64,000 nt of DNA, taken from Escherichia coli. GTDB taxonomy: Bacteria; Pseudomonadota; Gammaproteobacteria; Enterobacterales; Enterobacteriaceae. A program made the position numbers and the translations under genes. Under the pieces are notes generated by a model, which was not told the DNA's origin, did no database searches, and worked only from the letters and a program-made list of their open reading frames with translations. Positions 9,392-25,035 of this stretch are shown one piece after another (the stretch's first letter is position 1; each line of letters starts with the position of its first letter). Location of the stretch: assembly GCA_025544715.1 (NCBI GenBank), contig GCA_025544715.1_4109.2; one strand, 5' to 3'.

Positions 9392-9643
9392 TTAGATACC
9401 AAGTGCAGTAGATAACTCTTTACGTTTGTTATATGAATCAGATTCAATCTTACTTTTCTTGTTGAAAAGGGATTCGATATCCTTATAGATTGCTTCGATA
9501 GATTTAGTTACTACCCATTCTGATTCTTGAAGCATACCTTGGAGTCGTGCGTACTCAACTTTGATAGTACTGCGAAGTTCTTCACAAACTTCTTCATTCT
9601 TAATTAGTGCAGCACTAAGTTCTTTGACCTTATCGATGTTCAT
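9392..9643 (-). CDS. hypothetical protein (83 aa)
   Basis: ORF track. Confidence 0.4.
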   Translation of the reverse strand: MNIDKVKELSAALIKNEEVCEELRSTIKVEYARLQGMLQESEWVVTKSIEAIYKDIESLFNKKSKIESDSYNKRKELSTALGI

Positions 9644-9677
9644 AAGTTCCTTACTCTAATTTGTTTTTAACAAAATA

Positions 9678-9706
9678 ATTATATATAACATACTAAATTA
9701 TGTCAA
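9678..9706 (-). promoter_or_regulatory. sigma70-like promoter (TTGACA-17-TATAAT)
   Basis: consensus hexamers on minus strand. Confidence 0.55.
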
Positions 9707-10128
9707 GTATTTTTAGTACCTTCTTCTGCCATTTTTGTGATATACCAATTAAGTACTGATTTGTGTACCATAAAAAATGTGAATGCAAATATAACAATAG
9801 CTGCTGATGTAACACTATTAGATAATGACCCAAGTTGGATGTTAGTACCTAAAATAACAATAAATGGATACAACACAATCAATCTACTGTAAGGTTCGTC
9901 TCCAGTATCACGGAGAAATCCAAGCCTTTCATGATCAGTATCCATAGTGACAATTGGACAGAACATAAGTGCAGACATAAGAGCAATACCAATTTGTGCT
10001 ACATTGGAAATTGTAAACCACAAAGGATTTAAACCATATGAAATATTATTTTCTGTACAGTAGTAACCAAACGAATTGAATGCACAAACTAAAAATACAA
10101 AAATACAAATCTTATTATAACCTCTCAT
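9703..10128 (-). CDS. hypothetical membrane protein (141 aa)
   Basis: multiple hydrophobic helices. Confidence 0.45.
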   Translation of the reverse strand: MRGYNKICIFVFLVCAFNSFGYYCTENNISYGLNPLWFTISNVAQIGIALMSALMFCPIVTMDTDHERLGFLRDTGDEPYSRLIVLYPFIVILGTNIQLGSLSNSVTSAAIVIFAFTFFMVHKSVLNWYITKMAEEGTKNT

Positions 10129-10547
10129 TTGTTTAGCTCCGTTAATTTTCGTTTAACTTCTAGATCATGAAATTCATCGGCATATGAGTTTTGAACAGTT
10201 CTGATGTATTCCAACATAACAAACATAGTTCCACATACCCATAGATATGTATAGTAATCAAATACAAATGCATATAACATACACGGTACTAAAATGAAAG
10301 TGTAAACAAAACTATATCGTGTAGTTCCAAATACTTTCAGATATAACAAACGTCGATAATCACGGGCAAATGTATTGATGCACACTGAAAATGTAATTAA
10401 TGTATACCATGAAATACCCTGAATTAAACCTGAAACATTTACAAGTTTATGTTCATCGGAAAACCCCAGTGCATTTAGCACTGGAGCCATAACCCAACCA
10501 ATAATACTAATAAGAAAAAGATATTTTGCATTACTTAGTGTGAACAT
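10125..10547 (-). CDS. hypothetical membrane protein (140 aa)
   Basis: multiple hydrophobic helices; 4-nt overlap with downstream gene. Confidence 0.45.
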   Translation of the reverse strand: MFTLSNAKYLFLISIIGWVMAPVLNALGFSDEHKLVNVSGLIQGISWYTLITFSVCINTFARDYRRLLYLKVFGTTRYSFVYTFILVPCMLYAFVFDYYTYLWVCGTMFVMLEYIRTVQNSYADEFHDLEVKRKLTELNK

Positions 10548-11048: not shown

Positions 11049-11525
11049 CTAAGAATCTTTGTTGTCAAACTTTTCCCTCAAGTATTTTTCTATTAATCTA
11101 ATTTGTGTTGGTGGTAAGATAAAATAATCGTACATAGATTTACTACCATGTATCGAACAACCTACACTAATACTATAATCATATGGATATAAGTATATTG
11201 GGTCTTGTATATCAGGTATGAAAACTATTCTTGATATATTACCATTTCCTATTCTTACTTGGACGTTATCATTATTATTAATATAATTTCTTATACAGTA
11301 CTCAATTATACCATTTACTTTAGAATCATAACCATAATTTTTATATTCAGGAAAAATGAAATAGCGTTCATGGTATAGATATGAGCATAGTAATGCTGGG
11401 AAAAAATTCCAAAAACCTTCATGCTTTGCAATTGTTTGTGCATATTTAAAATGATTAGCATTACTAAAAATATTATACAGTACAAAATACACAAATGGAC
11501 TTACCAACAACACTATTGTTAACAT
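11049..11525 (-). CDS. hypothetical protein (158 aa)
   Basis: ORF track; hydrophobic N-terminus. Confidence 0.5.
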   Translation of the reverse strand: MLTIVLLVSPFVYFVLYNIFSNANHFKYAQTIAKHEGFWNFFPALLCSYLYHERYFIFPEYKNYGYDSKVNGIIEYCIRNYINNNDNVQVRIGNGNISRIVFIPDIQDPIYLYPYDYSISVGCSIHGSKSMYDYFILPPTQIRLIEKYLREKFDNKDS

Positions 11526-19941: not shown

Positions 19942-20415
<474 letters not shown>

Positions 20416-20427
20416 TTAAATACTCTC

Positions 20428-21107
<680 letters not shown>

Positions 21108-21113
21108 AACTTA

Positions 21114-21653
21114 TTAACGTTCATCATCATGAATCTCACGATGACAATTAGCACAAACCATAATACATTTATCTAGTTCTATTTTGATTTTTTCAAAAGA
21201 ACGAGTTGAACCTTCTTGACTAATTGAAAAATCTTTCTGTGAAGGGTCAATATGGTGAAATTCTAATGCCGCAATGCATTTATTATAACCACACTTTTCG
21301 CAGCAACCACCTTTGTATTCAACAGCTAATATTTTTAATTTTCTACGTCTATCCGAAACACGTTGACTGTCACATTTTGAGCATTTCCATTTACCTTGTG
21401 AATTTAAATCATAATTCTTATTGTGTATTTCACAAAATCTCATTTCATTCGTTGACTTTGGTCGTTTAACACCATGTGATTCAATAATGTTATTGATTCT
21501 TGATCTATTACACTTATATTCTTTGGCTAAACCGTAAATTGGCATACCATTTAAATACTTCTGAATTATTTCATTCTCTGGTAATTTAGAACTTTTCGCC
21601 TTTATTGCTTCGGCTATTTTGTTGCGTGTTTCTTCTGATTGTTTTCGTCCCAT
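21114..21653 (-). CDS. HNH homing endonuclease (179 aa)
   Basis: N-terminal GRKQSEETRNKIAEA (NUMOD-like) and C-terminal LEFHHIDPSQKD...CANCHREIH; adjacent to tRNA cluster. Confidence 0.6.
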   Translation of the reverse strand: MGRKQSEETRNKIAEAIKAKSSKLPENEIIQKYLNGMPIYGLAKEYKCNRSRINNIIESHGVKRPKSTNEMRFCEIHNKNYDLNSQGKWKCSKCDSQRVSDRRRKLKILAVEYKGGCCEKCGYNKCIAALEFHHIDPSQKDFSISQEGSTRSFEKIKIELDKCIMVCANCHREIHDDER

Positions 21654-21718
21654 GAACCTTAGACCTCATAATATCCATTATGATATTATTTATTGTTCCA
21701 AGGTTCATAGTTAATTTG

Positions 21719-21802
21719 CTGGTAGTACTGGAGTCGAACCAGTCTTGTCATTTCTGACACGGATTAACAGTCCGTTGCATAAGGCCGATATGCTAACTAC
21801 CA
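21719..21802 (-). tRNA. tRNA, anticodon GUU as read (Asn), but with a long class-II variable arm; identity uncertain
   Basis: hand fold: 7-bp acceptor, D-arm GCAT/ATGC, anticodon stem ACGGA/TCCGT with loop CTGTTAA, 15-nt variable arm, T-arm ACTGG-TTCGACT-CCAGT. Confidence 0.5.
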
Positions 21803-21814
21803 TTTGTTTTAAAT

Positions 21815-21894
<80 letters not shown>

Positions 21895-21897
21895 GTA

Positions 21898-22391
<494 letters not shown>

Positions 22392-22753
22392 ATCACCAAC
22401 TTTAATTAAAAAAATGGATGGTGACGCGTTTAAACGCCGCTGTTAATTCAGCTTTATAACCACCCGTTTTAACTTACCTTTCGGCTACCTTGACGTGGGG
22501 CGTACAGGCTACTAAAAGCAACTTCTGTAAACATATTTCCACGCCTTACCATTTTAAATAAAAGTCCATCCGGTTTTCCAGTTTGGTGAAGGACTGTCAC
22601 CTCTAGTTTCAACCTGCTAGTCAAGTAATAATTGCCTATCGTCCAATTATCAAACCCGTCTAGGTTAACATTCACCACTTCCTAGAGTACCAGAGATCTT
22701 GTTCTGGATAGCATCGACGTAACTTACACCATATACGTCTGATTGTGGAATTC
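22392..22753 (-). ncRNA. candidate promoter-driven structured RNA or long leader (~360 nt)
   Basis: ORF-free, visibly GC-richer stretch immediately downstream of a consensus promoter. Confidence 0.25.
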
Positions 22754-22778
22754 ATTATATCAGTACTGAACTATTTAG

Positions 22779-22782
<4 letters not shown>
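22754..22782 (-). promoter_or_regulatory. sigma70-consensus promoter (TTGACT-17-TATAAT), cassette copy 2
   Basis: near-identical to the cassette at 21995-22023. Confidence 0.55.
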
Positions 22783-23191
<409 letters not shown>

Positions 23192-23204
23192 GCTTTTTTT
23201 TTAA

Positions 23205-23365
<161 letters not shown>

Positions 23366-23369
<4 letters not shown>

Positions 23370-23526
23370 ATTCGTACCAGTAGTTCAATTAAGTACATTT
23401 CATATGCTGGATCGTTGATAAGTTTATCATACAGATGTGGCTCTGAAATGAATTCCCAATGATACTCTAACCACTTACCAAAACCTGCATATCTAAAATT
23501 AATGTCATTCATCCATTCTTCATGTG

Positions 23527-23530
<4 letters not shown>
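23366..23530 (-). CDS. MTHEEW small-protein family member (54 aa)
   Basis: hand translation MTHEEWMNDINFRYAGFGKWLEYHWEFISEPHLYDKLINDPAYEMYLIELLVRI. Confidence 0.45.
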
Positions 23531-23790
<260 letters not shown>

Positions 23791-23794
23791 TATT

Positions 23795-23910
<116 letters not shown>

Positions 23911-23927
23911 ATGTGATGTCCCATTAT

Positions 23928-24146
23928 TTATGCAAGTGCTTTAGATACACCGACACCAATAATTCCAGTGATAGCGATATGGATATTGACAAGTTGATTA
24001 CTATCATATGGGTTTGTTTCTGTAATAACCAATGTTGTATCATTGACTAAAACCACAGTGCCTTTTACACGATACCCATGTAGTAGTACTTGAACCTCAT
24101 CTTCAGGTTTTAATGATTGAATAACTTCAAATAAAGTTGTTTCCAT
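23928..24146 (-). CDS. hypothetical protein (72 aa)
   Basis: ORF track. Confidence 0.35.
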   Translation of the reverse strand: METTLFEVIQSLKPEDEVQVLLHGYRVKGTVVLVNDTTLVITETNPYDSNQLVNIHIAITGIIGVGVSKALA

Positions 24147-24162
24147 TTTTTATATTCCTTGT

Positions 24163-24345
24163 TTAGTTTTGATTATTTGATTTTCTAAATGCCAGTTCGC
24201 ATATAAACCAAGGTTTTCTGGTATCCAAAACATATGACCTGAAAAGATTTTCATCTCTTAAGATATCATAATGTACCTGACGAATGCCATTTCCAAAGCA
24301 ATCATGTTCTTTATGCTGTTTGGACATCCATTCTTCGTGTGTCAT
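24163..24345 (-). CDS. MTHEEW small-protein family member (60 aa)
   Basis: track ORF 24163-24363 trimmed to the internal MTHEEWMSKQHKEHDCFGNGIR start. Confidence 0.4.
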   Translation of the reverse strand: MTHEEWMSKQHKEHDCFGNGIRQVHYDILRDENLFRSYVLDTRKPWFICELAFRKSNNQN

Positions 24346-24346
24346 T

Positions 24347-24682
<336 letters not shown>

Positions 24683-24687
24683 TCTTA

Positions 24688-24864
24688 CTATTTTTTGTCT
24701 CTAATTGCAAGCTCATAGATGAACCAGTGGTTGCTATCCCCATCCAATACAAATGATTTGAAAAGTTGTTTATCTTTTAACACATCATAATGACCTTGGC
24801 GTATACCAAAACCAAAAGGATTATGTTTGAATTTTAGTTCATCTAACCATTCTTCATGTGTCAT
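24688..24864 (-). CDS. MTHEEW small-protein family member (58 aa)
   Basis: hand translation MTHEEWLDELKFKHNPFGFGIRQGHYDVLKDKQLFKSFVLDGDSNHWFIYELAIRDKK. Confidence 0.4.
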   Translation of the reverse strand: MTHEEWLDELKFKHNPFGFGIRQGHYDVLKDKQLFKSFVLDGDSNHWFIYELAIRDKK

Positions 24865-25035
24865 CTCTTAATATCCATAACGGCTATACTAAAATATGTA
24901 CTAAAATCATCACAGTGAATGATATTGTTATAGTACGATTCGGGATCATTTAACAATAAAAACAACTCCAACTTAAAAAAGTATACATCACCTGCATTTA
25001 TATTGTAATGCATTTGATACCACTCGTCAAATGTT

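What the first reader, a model, noticed from the sequence alone, without database searches (positions are those of the whole stretch)
21719..21802. tRNA with GUU anticodon but a long class-II variable arm
My hand fold gives a clean cloverleaf with anticodon loop CTGTTAA (anticodon GUU, Asn) plus a 15-nt variable stem-loop typical of Ser, Leu or Tyr tRNAs. A class-II body with an Asn anticodon is unusual; it could be a Tyr-derived (GUA to GUU) tRNA, with possible consequences for decoding.
Basis: seen in the sequence. Interest (0 to 1): 0.5.

Follow-up and report, generated by a model that had tools for sequence, protein, structure and literature searches.

The report
Phage asparagine tRNA with extra arm
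This is a real, conserved phage tRNA for asparagine with a short extra hairpin; it is not a tyrosine-derived recoding tRNA, the same design recurs in about one in six phage asparagine tRNAs but almost never in cells, and here it arrived next to a mobile HNH nuclease gene.

Summary
Window 21719-21802 (- strand) is a tRNA with anticodon GUU and a 15-nt variable region that forms a 4-bp stem capped by GAAA (ARAGORN, Rfam 47.5 bits, cloverleaf MFE).

The Tyr-derived/recoding reading is not supported. The tRNA has the full E. coli Asn identity set (G34 U35 U36 plus G73) and U1-A72. Its T arm matches host tRNA-Asn at 17/17 positions and its anticodon stem at 9/10. It lacks A73 and G1-C72, which Tyr needs.

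It is one member of a phage-wide class:
- about 70 distinct long-arm tRNA-Asn sequences were collected, with covarying 3-4 bp stems and mostly GNRA loops;
- 11 of 72 phage tRNA-Asn carry the arm in samples not selected on Asn, against 19 of 803 for other class-I tRNAs;
- cellular genomes gave only 19 pattern matches in 185,579 species, and the confirmed tRNAs among them sit mostly in large tRNA arrays.

In this jumbo phage (Asteriusvirus-like) the gene lies in an HNH-endonuclease cassette. That cassette replaces the 73-nt class-I tRNA-Asn found in relatives.

It most likely decodes AAU/AAC as Asn. What the arm does is unproven. My leading inference, about 0.3, is that it shields the tRNA from tRNA-cutting defence nucleases such as PARIS AriB.

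The parts
21719..21802 (-). tRNA-Asn(GUU), 84 nt to the discriminator G73 at 21719. ARAGORN adds base 21718. CCA is not encoded.
   Evidence: ARAGORN, Rfam tRNA 47.5 bits, cloverleaf MFE. The sequence is identical in phage WPEC5 while the flanks differ by about 9%.
21766..21768 (-). Anticodon GUU. The anticodon arm ACGGA-CUGUUAA-UCCGU spans 21775-21759.
   Evidence: The arm matches E. coli tRNA-Asn at 16 of 17 positions.
21744..21758 (-). Extra (variable) arm, 15 nt: stem GUCA/UGAC (21758-21755 and 21750-21747), GAAA tetraloop (21754-21751), and unpaired AAG (21746-21744).
   Evidence: The homologous helix in 19 phage sequences shows changes on both sides in 3 of its 4 pairs.
21727..21743 (-). 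T arm ACUGG-UUCGACU-CCAGU.
   Evidence: It matches an E. coli tRNA-Asn gene copy (L007) at 17 of 17 positions.
21114..21653 (-). HNH homing-endonuclease gene (179 aa), starting 65 nt downstream of the tRNA-Asn. An AAGG ribosome-binding-like motif precedes the ATG.
   Evidence: PHROG 2255 'HNH endonuclease', E = 3e-33. Weak NUMOD3 match. 94% identical to the annotated HNH endonuclease of WPEC5. For its 6 closest relatives among the fetched loci, the nearest tRNA gene is tRNA-Asn in 5.
21816..21894 (-). tRNA-Met(CAU), 79 nt. It is part of the same replaced segment.
   Evidence: It has no similarity to the 90-nt tRNA-Met at this place in phage G17.
21899..21988 (-). tRNA-Ser(GCU), 90 nt, the first gene of the Ser-Met-Asn cluster.
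   Evidence: It is only 78.6% identical to the G17 counterpart, which reads as Ser(ACU).
21995..22023 (-). Promoter-like site TTGACT-17-TATAAT with a TG extension (11 of 12 matches), just upstream of tRNA-Ser.
   Evidence: Consensus scan only. Function is not shown.
21108..21909 (.). Segment with no detectable similarity to the same locus of Asteriusvirus G17, covering HNH, tRNA-Asn and tRNA-Met. Similarity is 97% to its left, 78.6% over 21910-22393, and 95% from 22717.
   Evidence: blastn of window 20000-25000 against L001.

Best explanation
The feature is a functional phage tRNA-Asn(GUU). It is probably transcribed with tRNA-Ser(GCU) and tRNA-Met(CAU) from a promoter upstream of Ser. The host CCA-adding enzyme would complete its 3' end, and host AsnRS would charge it through G34 U35 U36 and G73. 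It would then read AAU and AAC as asparagine in an AT-rich jumbo phage whose genes use Asn codons heavily.

It differs from every host tRNA-Asn by a 10-nt insertion that turns the 5-nt variable loop into a 4-bp, GAAA-capped extra arm. This is not a one-off. It is the local copy of a recurrent design found in phages and tRNA arrays, and the hairpin is kept by compensatory changes.

In this phage the gene was brought in as part of an HNH homing-endonuclease cassette. The cassette overwrote the 73-nt class-I tRNA-Asn, and the neighbouring tRNA-Met, that other Asteriusviruses carry.

Inferred, not shown: the extra arm changes the outline of the tRNA next to the 3' strand of the anticodon stem without touching the AsnRS determinants. 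The phage copy would then remain usable when host tRNA-Asn is attacked by tRNA-targeting defence nucleases. The documented example is PARIS AriB, which cuts E. coli tRNA-Asn at C40|C41.

My own probabilities: a real Asn-accepting tRNA, about 0.85-0.9; arrival with the HNH cassette, about 0.75; the arm as a nuclease shield, about 0.3.
For: - **Real tRNA:**
- **Purifying selection:** there are 0 differences in the 85-nt gene, and 0 in all 254 nt of the three tRNAs, between the window and WPEC5. The flanks show 78 differences in 837 nt. The chance of 85 unchanged bases at that divergence is about 2.5e-4.
- **Asn identity:** the tRNA has GUU plus G73, the E. coli Asn determinants (PMC9976931 citing Li et al. 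1993), and U1-A72 as in E. coli. Its anticodon arm and T arm are host-like.
- **Demand:** Asn codons make up 6.1% of the codons in 45 long ORFs, 70% of them AAU, at 33% GC.
- **A class, not an accident:**
  - 57 viral contigs match a long-arm pattern, and 234 isolate phage records give BLAST matches, annotated tRNA-Asn where the records carry annotation; many of these alignments span the extra arm.
  - I collected about 70 distinct sequences: median variable region 15 nt, stems of 3-4 bp, GNRA loops in 39 of 69, and G73 in 65 of 70.
  - The extra-arm helix shows double changes in 3 of its 4 pairs and is 89.5% paired, and the structure as a whole (14 pairs) exceeded all 500 shuffles.
  - In contigs sampled on tRNA-Asp or tRNA-Lys, 11 of 72 tRNA-Asn are long-arm against 19 of 803 other class-I tRNAs (odds ratio 7.4, p = 8.5e-6).
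  - Only 19 matches occur in 185,579 cellular genomes. About 12 of these are long-arm tRNA-Asn confirmed by ARAGORN, most of them inside arrays of 7-36 tRNAs.
- **Cassette:** similarity to G17 is lost over 21108-21909. The neighbouring ORF is an HNH endonuclease. Relatives of this HNH sit next to tRNA-Asn genes in other phages. T4 SegB is a documented precedent for homing of tRNA gene blocks, and its preferred site lies in a tRNA-Asn gene (PMC2330249).
- **Shield idea:**
  - AriB cuts E. coli tRNA-Asn(GUU) at U36AAUC|C41, and T5 escapes with substituted tRNAs (PMC12409363).
  - The three class-I phage tRNA-Asn of enterobacterial phages that I read (T5, T2, G17) all differ from the host at positions 39-41.
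  - Every long-arm tRNA-Asn from enterobacterial phages keeps the host U39 C40 C41.
Against: - No expression, charging or cleavage data exist for this tRNA or any member of the class.
- The contrast between long-arm copies with a host-like stem and class-I copies with a diverged stem is biased. My BLAST and pattern searches found long-arm copies through that same stem.
- In the unbiased sample only 3 of 11 long-arm tRNA-Asn have the GGACUGUUAAUCC stem.
- The window encodes no tRNA-Lys(UUU) or tRNA-Thr(UGU), which are AriB's main targets. Escape from PARIS specifically would therefore be incomplete.
- Class II synthetases of the AspRS/AsnRS type approach tRNA from the variable-loop side (textbook knowledge, not tested here). 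An extra arm could therefore hinder charging.
- Extra arms also occur sporadically on Trp, Glu, Gly and other phage tRNAs, so the cause may be more general than one nuclease.
- The donor of the cassette was not found. The exact allele is absent from IMG/VR and from the JGI metagenomes.
Confidence: 0.55

Rival explanations
1. The extra arm has no function of its own at the RNA level. It is a tolerated insertion at the one place where a tRNA accepts extra bases. It is kept as a tight GNRA hairpin only so that the tRNA still folds, and it spreads because the gene travels with mobile endonuclease genes and recombining tRNA arrays.
For: Extra arms appear sporadically on many class-I isoacceptors in phage arrays, including Trp, Lys, Thr, Glu, Pro and Gly. 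Phage tRNA regions are recombination hot spots full of HNH genes (T5; JP4; window). Stem covariation and GNRA caps are what folding constraints alone would produce.
Against: The arm is strongly enriched on Asn: 11 of 72 against 19 of 803 for other class-I tRNAs, p = 8.5e-6, and 0 of 127 for Asp, although the tRNA-Asp anchor pattern itself selected class-I copies. It is retained across several genera of T4-like phages and across unrelated phage families. Long-arm copies show co-variation of G9 with a class-II-like D arm, with U8G9 in 34 of 70 against 5 of about 130 class-I tRNA-Asn. Several body types carry the arm, which suggests repeated origin or long maintenance.
Confidence: 0.25
2. The insertion protects the gene at the DNA level. 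It interrupts the recognition site of a homing endonuclease that targets tRNA-Asn genes. The allele would then be immune to cleavage by the neighbouring HNH enzyme or by enzymes of co-infecting phages.
For: An HNH gene lies 65 nt from the tRNA. For 5 of the 6 closest relatives of this HNH, the nearest tRNA gene is tRNA-Asn. The tRNA-Asn gene of T2L is the preferred target of T4 SegB (PMC2330249).
Against: Relatives of the HNH sit beside class-I tRNA-Asn genes as often as beside long-arm ones, 3 against 2 among the closest relatives. SegB's 27-bp site starts at GGTTCRANTCC and runs 3' to CCAR, so a variable-loop insertion would not touch it. Most T4-like phages with the long-arm gene have no endonuclease annotated next to it. 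Selection at the DNA level alone would not require a base-paired, covarying hairpin.
Confidence: 0.1
3. The tRNA would have a class-II body, derived from Tyr or Ser, whose anticodon mutated to GUU. TyrRS or SerRS would charge it, so Asn codons would be partly read as Tyr or Ser.
For: The arm has Tyr-like size and geometry. The D loop contains CGGCC, as in E. coli tRNA-Tyr. A T4-like phage tRNA-Tyr shares 79.5% of the 44 core positions I compared. G73, G2-C71 and C11-G24 are also present in tRNA-Ser. The precedents are nev-tRNAs, class-II bodies that carry class-I anticodons (PMC4033280).
Against: G73 in place of the essential A73 rules against TyrRS and LeuRS. The first pair is U1-A72, whereas G1-C72 is required in bacterial Tyr and conserved in bacterial Ser. 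The arm has 4 bp and a (0,3) unpaired pattern, against a median of 5 bp and a (1,1) pattern for phage tRNA-Ser. The full AsnRS determinant set is present. The T arm and anticodon arm match host tRNA-Asn. The design is conserved in hundreds of phages that also carry normal Tyr and Ser tRNAs.
Confidence: 0.05
4. The gene is a decaying or non-functional tRNA pseudogene carried along with the endonuclease.
For: CCA is not encoded. WPEC5's annotators did not call the tRNA. The Rfam score, 47.5 bits, is the second lowest of the six tRNAs in the window.
Against: All four canonical stems are fully paired, and U8, G18G19, U33, A37 and the UUCGA T loop are intact. There are no substitutions relative to WPEC5 although the flanks have diverged by about 9%.
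Confidence: 0.03

Closest known systems
Canonical bacterial tRNA-Asn(GUU), for example the E. coli asn genes
   Same: It shares the GUU anticodon, the discriminator G73, the U1-A72 pair and the anticodon loop CUGUUAA. The anticodon stem matches at 9 of 10 positions and the T arm at 17 of 17. These features include the whole published identity set for E. coli AsnRS.
   Different: The variable region is 15 nt and forms a 4-bp GAAA-capped hairpin, instead of the 5-nt loop AUGUC. The acceptor stem (apart from 1-72) and the D arm are different. CCA is not encoded.
Bacterial class-II tRNA-Tyr(GUA)
   Same: It has an extra arm of similar length (15 nt against a median of 14) with about 3 unpaired bases on the 3' side. 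It shares G34 and U35, and a CGGCC motif in the D loop.
   Different: It has G73 instead of A73, U1-A72 instead of G1-C72, and U36 instead of A36. The T arm matches E. coli tRNA-Tyr at only 10 of 17 positions. Phages with the homologous tRNA-Asn keep a separate tRNA-Tyr.
nev-tRNAs of nematodes and bacterial allo-tRNAs (class-II-type bodies carrying anticodons of class-I amino acids)
   Same: A long variable arm is combined with an anticodon that normally belongs to a class-I tRNA (PMC4033280; PMC5389517 is listed, which I did not read).
   Different: Those tRNAs keep Leu or Ser identity because LeuRS and SerRS ignore the anticodon, so they can miscode. Here the anticodon and G73 are themselves the determinants of the cognate enzyme, so no recoding is expected. 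The arm is also shorter and set differently from Ser arms.
Phage T5 tRNA-Lys, tRNA-Thr and tRNA-Asn variants that escape the PARIS nuclease AriB
   Same: These are phage-encoded copies of a tRNA that a host defence nuclease targets. They are thought to keep translation running after host tRNA is cleaved (PMC12409363).
   Different: The T5 tRNAs are class I (its tRNA-Asn is 78 nt) and escape through base substitutions around positions 39-41. The window's tRNA keeps the host sequence at that site and differs by the added arm. Whether it resists any nuclease has not been tested.
T4 segB and the T5 heg genes: free-standing homing endonucleases inside phage tRNA clusters
   Same: An endonuclease gene lies among tRNA genes. 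The locus is mosaic between related phages, and neighbouring tRNA genes are replaced together with the endonuclease.
   Different: SegB is a GIY-YIG enzyme, whereas this one is an HNH enzyme with a NUMOD3-like N terminus. Its cleavage site and its homing have not been shown.

Membership tests
tRNA (Rfam RF00005) | Cloverleaf with acceptor, D, anticodon and T arms, scoring above the family's gathering score | tested here: met
   47.5 bits against a gathering score of 29, model positions 1-71. ARAGORN calls it. The MFE fold is a cloverleaf.
tRNA-Asn (substrate of bacterial AsnRS) | Anticodon G34 U35 U36 | tested here: met
   Anticodon GUU at window 21768-21766. The determinant is taken from PMC9976931.
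tRNA-Asn (substrate of bacterial AsnRS) | Discriminator G73 | tested here: met
   G at window 21719. G73 is present in 65 of 70 long-arm relatives.
tRNA-Asn (substrate of bacterial AsnRS) | Class-I architecture with a 4-5 nt variable loop | tested here: not met
   The variable region is 15 nt with a 4-bp stem. This is a structural habit of the family rather than a known AsnRS determinant.
tRNA-Asn (substrate of bacterial AsnRS) | Actual aminoacylation with asparagine | not testable with these tools
   This needs in vitro charging or analysis of the aminoacyl-tRNA from infected cells.
Bacterial tRNA-Tyr (class II) | Discriminator A73 | tested here: not met
   The tRNA has G73. A73 is critical for Tyr, and G73 is listed as an antideterminant for TyrRS. 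77 of 84 phage tRNA-Tyr have A73.
Bacterial tRNA-Tyr (class II) | G1-C72 first pair and anticodon GUA | tested here: not met
   The tRNA has U1-A72 and anticodon GUU.
Bacterial tRNA-Tyr (class II) | Extra arm of about 13-15 nt with about 3 unpaired bases on its 3' side | tested here: met
   The arm is 15 nt with a (0,3) unpaired pattern. Phage tRNA-Tyr has a median of 14 nt, and 47 of 61 show a (1,3) pattern.
Bacterial tRNA-Ser (class II) | Long extra arm with Ser-type length and orientation | tested here: not met
   The arm has 4 bp, 15 nt and a (0,3) pattern. Phage tRNA-Ser has a median of 5 bp and 18 nt, and 80 of 143 show a (1,1) pattern. The window's own Ser(UGA) arm is 18 nt.
Bacterial tRNA-Ser (class II) | G1-C72 and G2-C71 conserved, plus G73 | tested here: inconclusive
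   G2-C71 and G73 are present, but the first pair is U1-A72. Some T4-like relatives do have G1-C72, G2-C71, C11-G24 and G73, so weak serylation of those cannot be excluded by sequence alone.
Phage long-arm tRNA-Asn class (defined here) | GUU anticodon, G73, and a variable region of 11-23 nt forming a short hairpin that is usually GNRA-capped | tested here: met
   The window's arm GUCA-GAAA-UGAC-AAG fits the modal pattern of 15 nt, ((((....)))).... The helix covaries across 19 members.
Free-standing homing-endonuclease cassette (SegB-like behaviour) | An endonuclease gene next to its target gene, with presence/absence polymorphism and co-replaced flanks among relatives | tested here: met
   The neighbouring ORF is an HNH endonuclease. 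It is absent from G17, where the adjacent tRNA-Asn and tRNA-Met have different sequences. It is present in WPEC5.
Free-standing homing-endonuclease cassette (SegB-like behaviour) | Site-specific cleavage of the endonuclease-free allele and preferential inheritance in co-infection | not testable with these tools
   This needs the purified enzyme and phage crosses.
Nuclease-evading phage tRNAs (T5-type escape from PARIS) | Resistance to the defence nuclease that cuts the host isoacceptor | not testable with these tools
   Only circumstantial evidence is available. The host-identical U36AAUCC41 is retained next to the added arm.

The most novel reading that the evidence does not exclude
The extra arm could be a structural disguise. 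It would be a second route, needing no base substitutions, by which phage tRNAs escape tRNA-cutting immune nucleases. A short GNRA-capped hairpin grafted at positions 44-48, directly after the 3' strand of the anticodon stem, would block nucleases that dock on the anticodon stem and D-loop face, such as PARIS AriB cutting at 40|41. Anticodon, G73 and stem sequence would stay host-identical for AsnRS and the ribosome. This would explain three observations: the arm is concentrated on tRNA-Asn; it also appears on Lys(UUU), Thr(UGU) and Pro(UGG) in some phages (L062); and it is confined to phages and mobile tRNA arrays.
Probability: 0.25. Interest if true: 0.8.

Novelty: new variant of a known kind. 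Interest (0 to 1): 0.55.

Why it matters
Phage tRNAs are now seen as counter-measures against tRNA-cutting immune systems such as PARIS, retron effectors and PrrC. So far the only documented escape route is base substitution near the cut site.

A class of asparagine tRNAs that keeps the host sequence but adds an arm would point to a second, structural escape route. I found about 70 distinct sequences of this class, covering hundreds of isolated Klebsiella, Enterobacter, Escherichia, Serratia, Pseudomonas and Providencia phages. The idea can be tested directly by comparing versions with and without the arm against AriB and other nucleases.

The class also shows that AsnRS, or ND-AspRS with GatCAB, must tolerate a class-II-like arm. 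That bears on tRNA identity rules and on the design of orthogonal tRNAs.

For genome annotation, it shows that a GUU tRNA with a long arm in a phage is normal. It should not be flagged as a Tyr or Ser pseudogene or as a recoding tRNA.

If the arm turns out to be neutral, the finding is still a tidy example of tRNA genes being swapped by HNH cassettes in jumbo phages.

Tried and rejected
- **Tyr-derived tRNA.** Rejected on G73, U1-A72, the host-Asn-like T and anticodon arms, and the presence of separate tRNA-Tyr genes in phages with the homologous gene.
- **Ser mischarging.** Considered unlikely because the arm differs from Ser arms in length and in its unpaired-base pattern, and because the first pair is U1-A72. 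It is not fully excluded for T4-like relatives that have G1-C72.
- **The arm as a disruption of a SegB-type site.** SegB's site runs from GGTTCRANTCC to CCAR, 3' of the variable region, so this specific version fails.
- **Origin of the body.** Similarity over 44 core positions cannot separate Asn from Tyr ancestry cleanly. The best matches are long-arm tRNA-Asn at 82%, but a phage tRNA-Tyr, a Trp and a Gln reach 79.5%. I leave the origin open.
- **Donor of the cassette.** A 47-nt exact search found nothing in IMG/VR or the JGI metagenomes. In the isolate collection only WPEC5 has the allele.
- **E. coli genomes.** BLAST with the 85-nt query gave a single weak hit, to a tRNA-Asn gene. I used it only to fetch the host sequence.
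- **Literature.** Seven full-text searches found no description of long-arm tRNA-Asn in phages. The library lacks most subscription journals, so an older description cannot be excluded.
- **Link to the host-like anticodon stem.** The unbiased sample is too small, and its hosts are unknown, so it could not be tested there.
Full report
**1. The observation**

The window is part of a jumbo E. coli phage of the 121Q/PBECO4/G17 group (Asteriusvirus). A 4.5-kb stretch around the finding matches these phages at 91-94% identity.

ARAGORN finds six tRNA genes on the - strand:

| tRNA | Window coordinates |
|---|---|
| Asn(GUU) | 21718-21802 |
| Met(CAU) | 21816-21894 |
| Ser(GCU) | 21899-21988 |
| Arg(UCU) | 23714-23790 |
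| Ser(UGA) | 23795-23884 |
| Gly(UCC) | 24588-24660 |

- Rfam's tRNA model matches 21719-21802 end to end at 47.5 bits (gathering score 29, E = 4.6e-8). It puts the extra bases in the variable region.
- RNAfold returns a cloverleaf plus a fifth hairpin as both MFE and centroid, with z = -3.4.
- Read 5' to 3', the RNA is: UGGUAGU UA GCAU-AUCGGCCUU-AUGC A ACGGA-CUGUUAA-UCCGU GUCA-GAAA-UGAC-AAG ACUGG-UUCGACU-CCAGU ACUACCA G.
- No tool offers an alternative class-I fold with a different anticodon.

**2. Is it a working gene?**

- The only other phage in the isolate collection with this allele is WPEC5.
- The three tRNAs Ser, Met and Asn (254 nt) show no difference between the window and WPEC5. The ORFs and spacers around them show 78 differences in 837 nt.
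- At that divergence the chance of 85 unchanged bases is about 2.5e-4, and of 254 unchanged bases about 2e-11.
- All stems are fully paired, and the usual invariant bases are in place: U8, G18G19, U33, A37 and the UUCGA T loop.
- A strong promoter-like site (TTGACT-17-TGnTATAAT) lies just upstream of tRNA-Ser. This is a consensus match only.
- CCA is not encoded. I assume the host CCA-adding enzyme supplies it; this was not tested here.

**3. Which amino acid?**

The published E. coli Asn identity set is the three anticodon bases plus G73 (PMC9976931, citing Li et al. 1993). All four are present.

| Feature compared | vs E. coli tRNA-Asn gene (L007) | vs E. coli tRNA-Tyr |
|---|---|---|
| First pair and discriminator | same (U1-A72, G73) | different (G1-C72, A73) |
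| Anticodon stem | 9 of 10 | 6 of 10 |
| Anticodon loop | 7 of 7 | 6 of 7 |
| T arm | 17 of 17 | 10 of 17 |

- Tyr identity needs A73 and, in bacteria, G1-C72. G73 is listed as an antideterminant against TyrRS and LeuRS.
- Ser identity rests on the size and orientation of the arm and on G1-C72 and G2-C71.
- The window's arm has 4 bp, with 0 unpaired bases on the 5' side and 3 on the 3' side. Phage tRNA-Ser arms have a median of 5 bp and 18 nt and a (1,1) pattern.
- The arm is closest in size and geometry to Tyr arms (median 14 nt, (1,3) pattern).
- The identity elements nevertheless say Asn. I conclude, by inference from identity rules, that the tRNA is charged with Asn and reads AAU and AAC.
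- Those codons make up 6.1% of the codons in the window's long ORFs, and 70% of them are AAU.
- The other five tRNAs read AGA, UCA, AGY, GGA and AUG (or possibly AUA). This fits the usual codon-supply pattern of an AT-rich phage (33% GC). That reading rests on general knowledge.

**4. It is one of many**

- BLAST of the 101-nt region against 50,697 phage records gives 234 matches, annotated tRNA-Asn where the records carry annotation. Many of these alignments run through the extra arm.
- The annotated examples are 80-90 nt long and come from unrelated phage groups:
  - T4-like genera: Winklervirus CHI14, Karamvirus CC31, JD18-like Klebsiella phages, Moonvirus Merlin and a Morganella phage;
  - Marfavirus;
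  - Phapecoctavirus of E. coli;
  - a T5-like Providencia phage;
  - the Pseudomonas jumbo phage Psa21.
- The T4-like carriers each also have an ordinary tRNA-Tyr(GUA).
- I scanned IMG/VR with a pattern that demands the Asn anticodon arm, 12-26 extra bases and the T arm. It finds 57 contigs.
- The same pattern finds only 19 stretches in one genome each of 185,579 bacterial and archaeal species. About 12 of these are long-arm tRNA-Asn confirmed by ARAGORN. Most sit in arrays of 7-36 tRNA genes, for example in Micromonospora; the rest are lone genes or pattern matches that are not tRNAs.
- Together these give about 70 distinct long-arm tRNA-Asn sequences:
  - the variable region has a median of 15 nt;
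  - the stems are mostly 3-4 bp;
  - the loop is GNRA in 39 of 69 (GAAA in 30) and UUCG in 3;
  - the discriminator is G in 65 of 70.
- The stem letters differ between lineages (GUCA/UGAC, GAGC/GCUC, GAAC/GUUC, UGC/GCA, GCC/GGC and others).
- In a gap-free alignment of 19 members, 3 of the 4 extra-arm pairs show changes on both sides. This is as strong as in the T stem, and the structure as a whole beats all 500 shuffles and all slid controls.
- Long-arm copies often also have G9 and a class-II-like D arm. U8G9 occurs in 34 of 70, against 5 of about 130 class-I tRNA-Asn.
- Several different body types carry the arm. Some have the host-like GUUC...GAAC D arm and others a CCCGAG...GGG D arm. This suggests either repeated origin or long co-adaptation.

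**5. How common, without selection bias?**

- I sampled viral contigs through unrelated anchors, tRNA-Asp and tRNA-Lys(UUU) patterns, and read every tRNA around them.
- Among distinct sequences, 11 of 72 tRNA-Asn(GUU) are 81 nt or longer. The figure for all other class-I isoacceptors not used as anchors is 19 of 803 (odds ratio 7.4, Fisher p = 8.5e-6).
- tRNA-Asp gave 0 of 127, but its anchor pattern selected class-I copies, so it is not an independent control.
- Only tRNA-Ile(UAU) shows a comparable rate, 7 of 31.
- An extra arm on tRNA-Asn is therefore a marked habit of phages and mobile tRNA arrays.
- Seven full-text searches found no paper that describes it. The closest described cases are the nematode nev-tRNAs and, by title and abstract only, the allo-tRNAs. 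In nev-tRNAs a Leu or Ser body carries a foreign anticodon, which is a different logic.

**6. How it got into this phage**

- In Asteriusvirus G17 the same position holds a 73-nt class-I tRNA-Asn with a different sequence, followed by a 90-nt tRNA-Met and a tRNA read as Ser(ACU).
- Similarity between the window and G17 changes along the locus:

| Window segment | Similarity to G17 |
|---|---|
| up to 21107 | 97% |
| 21108-21909 | none detected |
| 21910-22393 | 78.6% |
| from 22717 | 95% |

- The unmatched segment holds the tRNA-Asn, the tRNA-Met and a 179-aa ORF (21114-21653, - strand) that starts 65 nt after the tRNA.
- That ORF is an HNH endonuclease (PHROG 2255, E = 3e-33) with a weak NUMOD3 N terminus. 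It is 94% identical to the annotated HNH endonuclease of WPEC5.
- Among all the loci I had fetched, the six closest relatives of this protein have tRNA-Asn as their nearest tRNA gene in five cases and tRNA-Asp in one. Of the five, two are long-arm and three are class I.
- Aeromonas phage 4_4572 and Pseudomonas phage Psa21 show the same neighbourhood in their annotation.
- Phage tRNA clusters are known to house homing endonucleases. T5 has four or five heg genes among its tRNAs.
- T4 SegB cuts preferentially inside the tRNA-Asn gene of T2L and drives replacement of a block of tRNA genes (PMC2330249).
- I therefore read the window's locus as the product of such a replacement. Cleavage and homing were not shown.

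**7. What the arm is for**

This is the weak point, and I mark it as inference.

The fact that prompts the leading idea:
- The PARIS effector AriB cuts E. coli tRNA-Asn(GUU), along with Lys(UUU) and Thr(UGU), between positions 40 and 41 (U36AAUC|C41).
- T5 escapes with tRNA variants that carry substitutions around that site (PMC12409363).

What I see in phage tRNA-Asn genes:
- The class-I tRNA-Asn of T5, T2 and G17 all differ from the host at positions 39-41.
- All long-arm copies from enterobacterial phages keep the host sequence at that site and differ instead by a hairpin that starts three bases further on.
[quoted passage not shown] The PARIS paper lists all four among cleaved or probably cleaved tRNAs. 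I noticed this after the fact.

This suggests that the arm is an alternative, structural way of escaping a nuclease.

Against it:
- My searches found long-arm copies through the host-like stem, so the contrast is biased.
- In the unbiased sample only 3 of 11 long-arm copies have that stem.
- The window has no tRNA-Lys or tRNA-Thr.
- Arms also occur on Trp, Glu and Gly.
- An arm on the variable-loop face might hinder a class-II synthetase (textbook knowledge, not tested here).

I give the shield idea about 0.3.

The alternatives:
- The arm is a tolerated insertion that is kept foldable and spread by mobile cassettes (0.25). The strong enrichment on Asn and the deep conservation argue against pure neutrality.
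- The arm protects the gene against a homing endonuclease (0.1). This is weakened because SegB's site lies 3' of the variable region, and because relatives of the HNH sit beside class-I tRNA-Asn genes just as often.

**8. Verdict**

- The Tyr-derived and recoding interpretation is not supported.
- The tRNA is a conserved Asn decoder of a recurrent long-arm design found in phages and mobile tRNA arrays. It entered this genome with an HNH cassette.
- The individual gene is ordinary for its class. The class itself appears undescribed and can be tested against current questions about phage tRNAs and anti-phage nucleases.
- I rate interest at 0.55 and novelty as a new variant of a known kind.

Noticed in passing
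L001 1194-1283 (- strand; phage G17), the counterpart of window 21816-21894: Where the window has a 79-nt tRNA-Met(CAU), G17 has a 90-nt tRNA-Met(CAU) with its own extra arm, GUCA-CAGUUAA-UGAC. That arm uses the same stem letters as the window's Asn arm, and the T stem ACUGG/CCAGU is also the same. The two allele types of the cluster each have one long-arm class-I tRNA, but on different isoacceptors. I have no explanation.
   Followed up: partly
L001 1291-1382 (phage G17), against window 21899-21988: The G17 homologue of the window's tRNA-Ser(GCU) is called tRNA-Ser with anticodon ACU, which is an unusual unmodified A34 anticodon. The two genes are about 79% identical.
   Followed up: no
Viral contigs L018, L022, L059, L080, L095, L135, L183 and L187 (coordinates): Phage tRNA-Ile(UAU) genes of 91-95 nt carry a long extra arm with a conserved CCAGAUUAG-like motif. 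They make up 7 of 31 tRNA-Ile(UAU) in the unbiased sample.
   Followed up: no
L062 (IMG/VR 3300037467_000284): 9623-9710, 10259-10345, 11255-11341 and 11429-11512: One uncultivated phage has extra arms on Lys(UUU), Asn(GUU), Pro(UGG) and Thr(UGU). The PARIS paper lists all four among tRNAs cleaved or probably cleaved by AriB. I noticed this after the fact.
   Followed up: partly
Window 23205-23691, 24163-24363 and 24688-24864 (- strand): A family of small paralogous ORFs (54-66 aa) sharing the motif MTHEEW(M/V/L), most beginning with it, is interleaved with the tRNA genes. Three of them lie in tandem at 23205-23691. Their function is unknown.
   Followed up: no
L073, L074 and L077 (Micromonospora and Verrucosispora chromosomes): These are arrays of 32-36 tRNA genes packed into about 5.4 kb or less. 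Each includes a 90-nt long-arm tRNA-Asn with a 6-bp arm. The arrays share the phage-type design.
   Followed up: partly
L333 (phage JP4) 797-1749: In JP4 the same locus has yet another arrangement. A different HNH endonuclease sits between two tRNA-Ser genes, and no tRNA-Asn is annotated. The locus is therefore a hot spot of cassette exchange in Asteriusviruses.
   Followed up: no
L039 6814-7561: A relative of the window's HNH lies between a long-arm tRNA-Asn (86 nt, 30 bp upstream) and a class-I tRNA-Asn (74 nt, 236 bp downstream) on the same contig.
   Followed up: no
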